DNA of 64,000 bases from positions 28,520,001 to 28,584,000 of the forward strand of contig OZ024763.1 in the NCBI GenBank assembly GCA_964016885.1, in the 5' to 3' direction. The notes beneath the pieces were generated by a model. The model was given only the letters and a program-made list of their open reading frames with translations. It was not told the origin of the DNA and made no database searches. How positions within the stretch are numbered: the first letter of the stretch is position 1; each line of letters starts with the position of its first letter. The stretch is from Eledone cirrhosa (lineage: Eukaryota). Positions 25,747-28,891 of the stretch are shown in pieces. Made by a program: the position numbers and the translations under genes.

Positions 25747-25965
25747 TATGTATATTTACATATATATATATATATATATATATATGTAAATATACATATA
25801 TATATATGTATATTTACATATATATATATATGTATATTTACATATATATATATATATGTGTAAATGAAGTAATTCCATCGGAAAAGTCCAGGAAAAAAGA
25901 GTGCTCTATGTAAGCAACAGAGCTTAATTATTATTATTATGTAATAAACAACATAAGGCAATTAT

Positions 25966-26023
25966 TCCATTTACCAGTGGTTTCTTAAAAGCAAAAGGTT
26001 TTGCTTTCAATCCTCAGAATGAA
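25966..26023 (-). ncRNA. Type I hammerhead ribozyme, family D (inverted pLTR)
   Basis: Reverse complement of 28743-28800. Confidence 0.88.
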
Positions 26024-26234
26024 AAATCCTGGTTTGTTTATTGAATATGGATTCTAAAAACGAAAATGCAATCTATATGAAAGTGAGGCTGGAAAAGGGA
26101 GAAGGAAAGGAAAAATAAAATAAAATAAAACTACACATGCAAACACACACAAAAAAAACCCAAAAGCATACTTACATACACACACATATATACACATATA
26201 ATTTGCACGCATACACATATACACATACACATAC

Positions 26235-26285
<51 letters not shown>

Positions 26286-26356
26286 CACATACATACACAT
26301 ATATATATATAAAGAGCGTACACCTACACACACATACACATATATATACACACATA

Positions 26357-26875
26357 TTGAAATCCAAAATCACCAGTTCAAACCGTACGAGGATAAATCC
26401 AGGATGCAGTTGCAGGAAGCCGGATGAATGCCCATTGCAGGGTAAATGTAAAACAAAATCTGTCGTTTATGAGGCTAAAATAACGCCAGTTATCAACAAC
26501 CAGCCAGCCAGAAGCGAGCGATATGTCGGTATGACCCAGGACAGGTTTAAAACCAGATTTTACTCACATGTCGCTTCTTTTAAACACTCAGATAAACGTA
26601 CATCAACGGCCCTCGCAAGTAAGGTATGGGATCTCAAGGATAGTAATATCCCGTACTCTATTGATTGGTCTATATTAGACCATTCGAGGGAGTACCAAAG
26701 GGGCACAAAGAATTGTTCTTTGTGTACCACAGAAAAGTATAGGATTTTGCTAAACTTGAGAGACACTTCCGCTTGCCTTAACTCTAAGACTGAGATCTTC
26801 AGATGCTGTCCTCATCTGAAATCGCATCTGATCTGTAACTGGATTGACACTCCTACGATAAATCAACCGCCTTGA
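26357..26875 (+). CDS. Penelope-like GIY-YIG endonuclease domain (5'-truncated polyprotein C-terminus)
   Basis: CSCR...CPLQGKC...SVVYEAKI...YVGMT..RFKTRFYSH..SF...TALA..VW.LKD....YSIDWSIL...CSLC..EK..IL...LNSKTE....CPH; open through the stop codon. Confidence 0.9.
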   Translation: MKSKITSSNRTRINPGCSCRKPDECPLQGKCKTKSVVYEAKITPVINNQPARSERYVGMTQDRFKTRFYSHVASFKHSDKRTSTALASKVWDLKDSNIPYSIDWSILDHSREYQRGTKNCSLCTTEKYRILLNLRDTSACLNSKTEIFRCCPHLKSHLICNWIDTPTINQPP

Positions 26876-27269
26876 ACTCCTTCTCTGCTCTTTACTTTTG
26901 CTACGGCTTTTATTTTGCTGCTTCTACCTTCTGTACTCTTGTTTTTAAAAAATATTTTTTTTCTCCCTTACCTCCCTTTATATTTTTACCTCCTCTAGGC
27001 CCCCCACCCCATATATTCTTTTTGTTTTGCCCTTCACATACCTATGTGTATGTGTATGTATTTTTGTGTGTATATATGTATATGTGTACGTGTATGTTTG
27101 TGTATGTATATATATGTGTATGTATGTATGTATATGTATGTGTGTGTATATATGTGTGTATGTATATATGTCTGTATATATATATATATATATATGTACA
27201 TATATATATATATATGTATATATATATATGTGTGTGTGCGTGTCTGTATGTGTGTATATATTTGTATAT

Positions 27270-27327
27270 TTCATTCTGAAGATTGAAGGAAACTTTTTTT
27301 GCTTTTAAGAAACCTCTGGTGAATGGA
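27270..27327 (+). ncRNA. Hammerhead family D, diverged internal copy (GUG site, probably inactive)
   Basis: UUCAUU-CUGAAGA-UUGAAGG...CUUUUAA-GAAACC-ucu-GGUG/AAUGGA. Confidence 0.65.
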
Positions 27328-27469
27328 TTAATTGCCTTGTATGGCTTTATTACTTTACTACTATATATACGTTTATGTAAGGTTCATTTGTCTTATCTAA
27401 TACTGAGCTTTACACATACACACATGTATATGTGTGTGTGTATGTGTATGCATGTGTGTATGTGTACGT

Positions 27470-27501
<32 letters not shown>

Positions 27502-27761
27502 TTGTGTATATGTATGTGTATATATATATATGTATATGTATATATGTATATGTGTATATGTATGTGTATGTATGTATATGTTGCGTGTGTTTTTATTTAT
27601 TTTTATGTATGTGTGGGTTTGTGTGTGGGTGTGTGTGTTTGTATTTGGTTGTGCGTTCTTTTGATATATACGTATTTGCATGTGTATAATTGTTTAGCTA
27701 TGTATGTATATGTGTGTTTACGTATTTATATGTGTGTGTGCGTTTATATTTTTATATTTTG

Positions 27762-27802
<41 letters not shown>

Positions 27803-28247
27803 GTGTGTGTGTGTGTATATAATTACATATACATGTGTGTGTTTATATTGTATACGTGTACGTGTTTGCGTATGTATGTGTATGTACGTGTTTATGTATT
27901 TGTATATGTATATTTATGTGTGAGAGTGTGTGTATGTGTTTACTATTTCGAACGTATGTATATGCGCTTATGTGTGTATTACTTACCACGCGTGTCTGTC
28001 CTGTTAGCTGGGGCATGTATCGCTGTCAAATATTTGTTAATATTATTTATATATTTTTTTCTTATATTTATTTGCGTGTGTTAATATGTAGTGGAGTGCA
28101 TTCATGTATGTGTATGTATGTATGTACGTTGTATGTTTGTGTGAATGTATGTATATGTGTGTGTATATATATGTGTGTGTGTATGTGTAGGCTTGTACAC
28201 ACACATGTGTGTGTGTGTGTATGTATATGTGTATATGTGTGTATATG

Positions 28248-28287
<40 letters not shown>

Positions 28288-28309
28288 GATATGTACATGT
28301 GTATGTATA

Positions 28310-28345
<36 letters not shown>

Positions 28346-28446
28346 CGTGTGTATGTATGAATAAATGTATGTGTATATGTGTGTATATATATGTGTATGT
28401 GTGTGTAGGTGTACGCTCTTTATATATATATATGTGTATGTATGTG

Positions 28447-28501
<55 letters not shown>

Positions 28502-28742
28502 GTATGTGTATGTGTATATGTGTATGCGTGCAAATTATATGTGTATATATGTGTGTGGTGCAAATTATATGTGTATATATGTGTGTGTATGTAAGTATGC
28601 TTTTGGGTTTTTTTTGTGTGTGTTTGCATGTGTAGTTTTATTTTATTTTATTTTTCCTTTCCTTCTCCCTTTTCCAGCCTCACTTTCATATAGATTGCAT
28701 TTTCGTTTTTAGAATCCATATTCAATAAACAAACCAGGATTT

Positions 28743-28800
28743 TTCATTCTGAGGATTGAAAGCAAAACCTTTTGCTTTTAAGAAACCACTGGTAAATGGA
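28743..28800 (+). ncRNA. Type I hammerhead ribozyme, family D
   Basis: UUCAUU-CUGAGGA-UUGAAAGCAAAA-cc-UUUUGCUUUUAA-GAAACC-acu-GGUA/AAUGGA; cleavage after 28794. Confidence 0.9.
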
Positions 28801-28827
28801 ATAATTGCCTTATGTTGTTTATTACAT

Positions 28828-28891
<64 letters not shown>

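What the first reader, a model, noticed from the sequence alone, without database searches (positions are those of the whole stretch)
25858..28830. Young Penelope insertion that carries microsatellite DNA inside its own 3' region and pLTR
Seen: about 25936-26356 is an almost exact reverse complement of 28376-28830, including about 200 nt of (TA)/(TG) mosaic. About 1.5 kb of TG/TA low-complexity DNA lies between the intact GIY-YIG ORF end and the terminal HHR, with a second, diverged HHR at 27270. Inference: the low-complexity DNA was part of the retrotransposed RNA. The element would then both target and spread microsatellite-like sequence, a possible feedback that contributes to the extreme repeat content.
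Basis: partly seen in the sequence, partly recalled or inferred. Interest (0 to 1): 0.72.

Follow-up and report, generated by a model that had tools for sequence, protein, structure and literature searches.

The report
Penelope retroelement copying a microsatellite-filled end
This is a recent, truncated copy of a known kind of jumping gene (a Hydra-clade Penelope-like element) that sits in a TA repeat and whose unusually long 3' end is full of TG/TA microsatellite that was likely copied along with it, so it could both use and deposit such repeats, although sharing of that stretch by other copies is untested.

Summary
25932-26357 is the reverse complement of 28375-28834 with 0 substitutions (one 4-nt TA and one 30-nt indel), including 191 nt of TG/TA mosaic. 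Between the arms lie a 5'-truncated, stop-free GIY-YIG end (no reverse transcriptase), 1.56 kb that is 79% purine/pyrimidine-alternating, and two hammerhead motifs 82% alike. The protein motifs, hammerhead, (TA)n flanks, inverted arm and one-sided 74-nt tail place it in the described Hydra clade of Penelope-like elements; that layout is ordinary and recurs three more times in the window. What is unusual is the 3' region: 1,873 nt from stop to terminal hammerhead against a median of 105 (65-515) in 43 related loci, with an inner hammerhead that has a non-cleavable GUG and no tail. The mosaic in the arms was very likely in the template RNA. Whether the whole 1.5 kb is lineage-wide (my best reading, 0.55) or a one-off capture is untested: no genome is held and the read tool skipped the repeats. 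Microsatellite carriage by Penelope elements is already in print for shrimp; the genome-wide feedback is not shown.

The parts
25150..25857 (.). Left flank: TA-rich array, the likely target tract
   Evidence: 90% RY-alternating, TG 23 vs CA 26
25858..25931 (-). 74-nt tail (start of the next unit) with the Hydra GCTC...GAGCAC hairpin; only on the inverted arm
   Evidence: similar by eye to the ends of Hydra-1/2_Ajap and Hydra-1_Crog in the supplement of PMC8557442
25932..26357 (-). Inverted, 5'-truncated copy of the 3' end: hammerhead (core 26017), 235 nt unique pLTR, 191 nt TG/TA mosaic
26358..26875 (+). 5'-truncated ORF end: CxCX5C linker and GIY-YIG endonuclease of Hydra type, stop-free, no RT
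26876..27042 (+). Pyrimidine-rich proximal 3' UTR, shared by many copies in public runs up to about 27030
27043..27265 (+). First TG/TA mosaic block, ending about 10 nt before the inner hammerhead core
27266..27369 (+). Inner hammerhead/pLTR-end remnant (core 27276), 82% to the terminal one; GUG triplet, 7-bp stem II, ends in (TA)4, no tail
27370..28374 (+). TG/TA mosaic blocks with T-rich unique spacers, present once
28375..28834 (+). Terminal pLTR region matching the inverted arm: 225 nt mosaic (with a 30-nt duplication), 235 nt unique, terminal hammerhead (core 28749, GUA at 28792-28794, 12-bp stem II)
28835..28888 (.). Right flank: pure (TA)n

Best explanation
This is one recent, 5'-truncated insertion of a Hydra-clade Penelope-like retrotransposon in a (TA)n tract, likely copied from an RNA whose 3' region already held the 1.5 kb of TG/TA mosaic and a decayed inner hammerhead, and that extended 3' end is likely a standing feature of the element's lineage. 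Shown: the arms, ORF end, two hammerhead motifs, tail and flanks. Inferred from the in vitro work on Poseidon (PMC11167929): the endonuclease nicked both strands of the TA tract, reverse transcription started at two nearby internal RNA sites (end of the tail, end of the pLTR), one cDNA stopped after about 500 nt (left arm) and the other after about 2,480 nt, and their truncated ends were joined at 26357/26358. Inferred: the terminal hammerhead plus tail is the working end, and the inner one is either the abandoned old end or a short sister-family insertion into a carried TA run. This copy has no RT and cannot move by itself.
For: Arms identical by substitution over 426 nt including the mosaic. 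The tail hairpin follows the terminal hammerhead in the inverted arm and not the inner one; it follows the hammerhead in 15 of 22 related loci checked. The inner hammerhead has G at the cleavage position (0 of 43 first hammerheads in related loci do) and a 7-bp rather than 12-bp stem II, while the ORF end is intact and 20 of the 27 listed ORF variants in public runs are synonymous: the ORF stayed constrained while that hammerhead decayed. The mosaic runs on without a break across 28375 (block 28084-28601), so the left arm simply stops inside it. ORF and proximal UTR are multi-copy in organism A (606 contigs in X1; cover to about 27030) and present in organism B (one 652-nt contig, 26393-27032). 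Same tail + inversion layout at about 1835-2395, 42535-42800 and 52590-52660.
Against: No second copy of 27043-28374 was seen anywhere; one search gives no data there. The lineage-wide step rests on two small lesions in one motif, and PLE hammerheads are reported as very variable (PMC4209133) and dispensable for insertion in vitro (PMC11167929). The strong TG-over-CA polarity of the segment (289:24; reached by 2 of 1,158 overlapping windows elsewhere) is not a Hydra 3' UTR trait (TG 307 vs CA 291 in 32 loci), so it is no support. One X1 contig joins 26427 to 26956 on opposite strands: with a 1.9-kb 3' region that copy's inverted arm would be much longer than the 100-500 nt arms seen in the window. 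A third of the window is such low-complexity DNA, so captured host DNA would look much the same.
Confidence: 0.55

Rival explanations
1. One-off transduction: at the donor locus an older copy ended at the inner hammerhead, about 1.2 kb of host TG/TA DNA followed, then the pLTR and tail of a sister element; read-through RNA was reverse transcribed from that tail. The mosaic was in the RNA but is not family-wide.
For: The inner hammerhead ends in (TA)4 like an insertion end and lies 400 nt from the stop, within the 65-515 range; host DNA is 33% low-complexity; four Hydra-type insertions in 64 kb; PLE transduction of host DNA is described (PMC6431247).
Against: Needs a same-orientation ORF-bearing neighbour within about 1.2 kb; does not explain a decayed hammerhead behind an intact, constrained ORF; still leaves 223 nt of mosaic between the stop and the inner hammerhead.
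Confidence: 0.3
2. Template switching during one insertion: a microsatellite-rich, non-autonomous pLTR RNA supplied 27370-28834 and the left arm, and RT jumped at a TA run to a second RNA that supplied 26358-27369.
For: Partial tandems of truncated copies are usual for PLEs (PMC8557442); the two hammerheads differ by 18%; a (TA)4 sits at the putative switch.
Against: No separate short element of this kind was seen in the window; it adds a step without evidence.
Confidence: 0.09
3. The mosaic arose after insertion by slippage or later insertion, or the inversion is an assembly artefact.
For: The arms already differ by a (TA)n length and a 30-nt duplication; the junction is not read-confirmed.
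Against: A non-periodic mosaic identical in both arms cannot arise twice; the left arm holds a clade-typical tail that the right arm lacks; the layout recurs in other insertions of the window and is the published one.
Confidence: 0.05

Closest known systems
Hydra clade of C-terminal-EN Penelope-like elements, incl. Hydra-1_Obim (Craig et al. 2021, PMC8557442; sections 11, 12, 15, passages, supplement parts 2, 52, 53 read)
   Same: CxCX5C linker, no CCHH, CxxC and CxH round the conserved E and N, type I hammerhead with short near-palindromic stem III, (TA)n target, inverted 5'-truncated copy at the 5' end (noted there for Penelope-13_HM), one-sided tail.
   Different: By eye a different family from Hydra-1_Obim, whose consensus is 2,507 nt with about 130 nt from stop to hammerhead and no microsatellite. 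Here 400 and 1,873 nt, two hammerheads, a 74-nt rather than 30-40-nt tail.
Recently transposed Penelope elements carrying SSRs in Litopenaeus vannamei (PMC7878876, passages read)
   Same: Young Penelope copies with internal SSRs argued to move with the element and to lengthen afterwards.
   Different: There two copies >98% alike were compared; clade, 3' position and (TA)n targeting are not stated in the passages I saw. Here the proof is the element's own inverted arm, and the carried motif equals the target.
Microsatellite seeding by CR1-L3 and Rex LINEs in snakes (PMC6050309, passages read)
   Same: A retroelement 3' end deposits microsatellite with each insertion.
   Different: A short terminal motif, shown genome-wide; here a long internal mosaic upstream of the terminus, shown for one copy.
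Poseidon of Anolis, in vitro mechanism (PMC11167929, first two of four parts read)
   Same: AT-rich nicking on both strands and two internal RT start sites explain the inverted arm and one-sided tail.
   Different: Other clade; not tested for Hydra.

Membership tests
Hydra-clade PLE | C-terminal GIY-YIG endonuclease behind an RT | tested here: met
   Domain ends at the stop; longer homologues at 39-55% identity carry an RT upstream. Pfam gave no hit for this piece or for two full-length homologues, so the name rests on motifs and the paper's alignment.
Hydra-clade PLE | CxCX5C linker motif | tested here: met
   CSCRKPDEC
Hydra-clade PLE | CCHH motif absent (no Cys inside the GIY-YIG core) | tested here: met
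   0 Cys between VY and YVG
Hydra-clade PLE | [quoted passage not shown] | tested here: met
   CSLCTTEK and LN...CPH
Hydra-clade PLE | Canonical type I hammerhead near the 3' end | tested here: met
   Motif at 28738-28812 with GUA. Rfam at gathering score found nothing in the window. Cleavage not tested.
Hydra-clade PLE | Insertion into (TA)n | tested here: met
   Both flanks; no TSD can be read in such a tract
Hydra-clade PLE | RWK and DKT motifs, divergent RT4 | not testable with these tools
   RT is missing from this truncated copy
Hydra-clade PLE | Generally short (<3 kb; a tendency, not a rule) | tested here: inconclusive
   A full unit with this 1.96-kb 3' region would be about 4 kb, but no full-length copy was seen
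Naiad/Chlamys PLE | N-terminal EN, no canonical hammerhead | tested here: not met
   EN is C-terminal and hammerheads are present (definition)
Non-LTR retrozyme | Non-coding tandem repeats each with a complete hammerhead | tested here: not met
   No tandem unit between the two hammerheads beyond about 100 nt of homology; coding remnant present; definition from 10.64898/2026.07.22.740005 part 1

The most novel reading that the evidence does not exclude
A high-copy (TA)n-targeting Penelope family whose replicating unit carries five long TA runs and 1.2 kb of TG/TA mosaic, so that each insertion plants new landing sites; the inner hammerhead is the scar of a sister element that already landed in one of those carried runs. 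That would be a self-feeding target-seeding loop and a measurable source of this genome's microsatellite load.
Probability: 0.2. Interest if true: 0.6.

Novelty: new variant of a known kind. Interest (0 to 1): 0.33.

Why it matters
If lineage-wide, it links two things reported separately, microsatellite targeting by PLEs and microsatellite carriage, in one element, and gives a countable route to extreme SSR content. It also shows that an inverted PLE arm can prove which DNA was in the template RNA from a single locus, and that consensus builders and short-read tools will clip such 3' ends. If it is a one-off transduction it is an ordinary example of known PLE behaviour.

Tried and rejected
No whole genome is held, so copies could not be aligned. 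Laying runs X1, X4, X5, X22 (4 of 24 listed) on 26296-27110 gave no data in 26296-26360 or 27033-27110: neither the junction nor the mosaic was tested. Word shares (0.70 to 0.07) were not used: 29 of 194 31-mers of the mosaic recur by chance even within the window. The window's T at 26599 was seen in no contig of X1, X4 or X5 and in at most 1 of 290 X22 reads, so those samples may not hold this copy and no empty-site test was possible. X5 has no library record, so no claim of transcription. Close relatives were not found in metagenome contigs with the window's protein or in viral contigs. Rfam, Pfam and PDB searches were blank. The representative-protein search was still queued when I stopped. 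TG/CA polarity was tried as a mark of element origin and dropped. A simple old tandem duplication of the pLTR was looked for and not found (only marginal T-rich similarity, 5 of 300 shuffles as good). Naiad and retrozyme were rejected (membership test). Literature searches listed no paper on a microsatellite-filled Hydra 3' region; subscription journals and Repbase were not searchable, so this is weak.

Full report
Observation. The stretch 25932-26357 is the reverse complement of 28375-28834 with 429 matches, no substitution, and gaps that are a 4-nt (TA)n difference, a 30-nt duplication in the right arm and 1 nt at the edge. 191 nt of the left arm are TG/TA mosaic, and that part matches its partner specifically (score 347 against at most 199 in 311 other tiles). 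From the junction at 26357/26358 a stop-free frame runs to a TGA at 26875. 27043-28599 is 79% purine/pyrimidine-alternating against 33% for the window. Hammerhead motifs have their cores at 27276 and 28749, mirrored at 26017; the descriptor hit 5 places in the window and 1 in 30 shuffles together.

Identity. The protein has CxCX5C, no cysteine inside the GIY-YIG core, CxxC before the conserved E and CxH after the conserved N. These are the marks of the Hydra clade in PMC8557442 section 11, which also lists canonical hammerheads and (TA)n targets. Four longer homologues (39-55% identity) carry an RT upstream. The paper's supplement lists one cephalopod member, Hydra-1_Obim, 2,507 nt, (TA)n; by eye it is another family with about 130 nt from stop to hammerhead. 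That the host is an octopus is my recall from the look of its SINE and repeats; no call tested it.

Layout. Left to right: TA array, 74-nt tail and inverted arm on the minus strand, truncated ORF end, 3' region, terminal hammerhead, (TA)n. An inverted 5'-truncated copy at the 5' end and a one-sided tail are the published PLE arrangement. The tail holds a GCTC...GAGCAC hairpin that follows the hammerhead in 15 of 22 related loci (22 with enough sequence out of 32 I picked to cut redundancy from 43; the pattern is loose and hits 14 places in the window). Three other insertions in the window have the same plan: about 1835-2395 (another Hydra family, 40% identical over 65 residues, about 167 nt from stop to hammerhead core, no microsatellite inside), 42535-42800 and 52590-52660. 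An assembly artefact is therefore unlikely, though reads did not test the junction.

What is unusual. Of 86 Hydra-type loci from metagenome and MAG contigs (the best 80 of 255 matches were kept), 12 lacked a usable ORF end and were dropped; 43 of the other 74 had a hammerhead by the strict finder, a median 105 nt after the stop (65-515), with at most 31 alternating bases before it and never G at the cleavage position. A looser core appeared within 64-238 nt in 12 more. Here the distances are 400 and 1,873 nt. Against over-reading: those loci are redundant, come from other hosts, and are mostly short contigs that would break in a microsatellite; L063 does end in a TG run shortly after its stop and L009 has a degenerate G/T-rich repeat there.

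Was the microsatellite in the RNA? For the 191 nt in both arms, very likely (about 0.9): a non-periodic mosaic identical in two arms of one insertion came from one template. For the remaining 1.3 kb it is inferred from contiguity (about 0.75 to 0.8): the mosaic block continues across 28375 and the ORF end must have been joined to the left arm in the same event. With 0 substitutions in 426 nt the 95% upper bound on arm divergence is 0.7%; at the octopus calibration in PMC13282606 (JC 0.09 = 25 My) that is under about 1 My, if the host is an octopus and the arms were not homogenised.

Is it family-wide? Not tested. The family is real and multi-copy: 606 contigs of X1 and 836 reads of X22 (organism A), 35 contigs of X5 and one 652-nt contig of X4 (organism B) lie on the ORF and proximal UTR, with cover to about 27030; 21 of the 27 listed ORF variants are third-position and 20 synonymous (73 further variant rows were not shown). 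But the tool skipped the repeats, so what follows 27032 in those copies is unknown. The indirect argument for a lineage-wide unit is that the inner hammerhead is decayed (GUG, shorter stem II, no tail) while the ORF is intact, and the tail is attached to the terminal one. The arguments against are that this rests on two small lesions, that hammerheads vary widely and are dispensable in vitro, that host DNA here looks alike, and one contig whose inversion point would imply a long arm. I put 0.55 on lineage-wide, 0.30 on one-off transduction, 0.09 on template switching, 0.05 on later growth or artefact.

Mechanism. Following the Poseidon results: nicks on both strands of the TA tract, RT starts at two internal RNA sites flanking the tail, two cDNAs of about 500 and 2,480 nt on opposite strands, joined at their truncated ends. 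Whether the template was a tandem read-through RNA or a hammerhead-processed circle (proposed in PMC4209133) cannot be told. All of this is inferred.

Feedback. This one insertion accounts for 1,445 of 21,323 low-complexity bases and 6 of 172 (TA)10+ runs in the window, so a copy does plant potential targets. The other Hydra insertions in the window carry none inside, and most copies are likely short stubs. A genome-wide effect is not shown. Carriage of SSRs by young Penelope copies is reported in shrimp, seeding by LINE 3' ends in snakes, host-DNA transduction by PLEs in a review. My eight answered searches listed nothing on a microsatellite-filled Hydra 3' region. Supplements other than that of PMC8557442 were not read and may bear on this.

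Verdict. Real, young, a member of a known clade, with an atypically long microsatellite-rich 3' end and an internal dead-looking hammerhead: a new variant of a known kind, interest 0.33; 0.6 if the self-seeding loop is confirmed (probability about 0.2).

Noticed in passing
window 1835-2395 (-): Second Hydra-type insertion of another family: tail variant, inverted pLTR end, truncated EN, about 167-nt UTR, hammerhead core at 1898, (TA)n on both sides; served as the repeat-free control.
   Followed up: partly
window 42535-42800 and 52590-52660: Short tail + inverted pLTR-end stubs related to this element (79-90% in the matched parts), each in a (TA)n tract.
   Followed up: partly
window 16860-17060, 23445-23635, 49970-50160: Three near-identical palindromic stubs with back-to-back CTGATGA...GAAA cores and a one-sided tail in (TA)n: another young PLE-like family.
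   Followed up: no
window 29099-29340, 33156-33567, 58128-58424, 23820-24126: A further ~200-300-nt repeat family (93-96% alike) ending in (TA)n; by eye it has a hammerhead-like core with a long stem II on the minus strand.
   Followed up: no
window 6530-6960, 7447-7718, 5455, 38773, 56718, 62127: More palindromic or single hammerhead-like stubs; the window is dense in PLE ends. The core at 5455 lies just downstream of a 325-nt CA/TA block.
   Followed up: no
window 148-933 (+): 261-codon stop-free frame with no Pfam hit; looks like a transposon-derived ORF (recalled, untested).
   Followed up: partly
window 24133-24683 and about 30 other places: Abundant ~100-170-nt SINE-like repeat in both orientations; from recall it resembles an octopus SINE.
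   Followed up: no
L079-L086: Eight Hydra-type PLE loci sit on contigs of bacterial MAGs, probably animal-host DNA binned by mistake; L082 is on a 491-kb contig labelled Denitrobaculum sp.
   Followed up: no
L063:3154-3214; L009:2414-2700: Hydra loci with a TG run or a degenerate G/T-rich repeat right after the stop codon: possible other cases of repeat-bearing 3' UTRs.
   Followed up: partly
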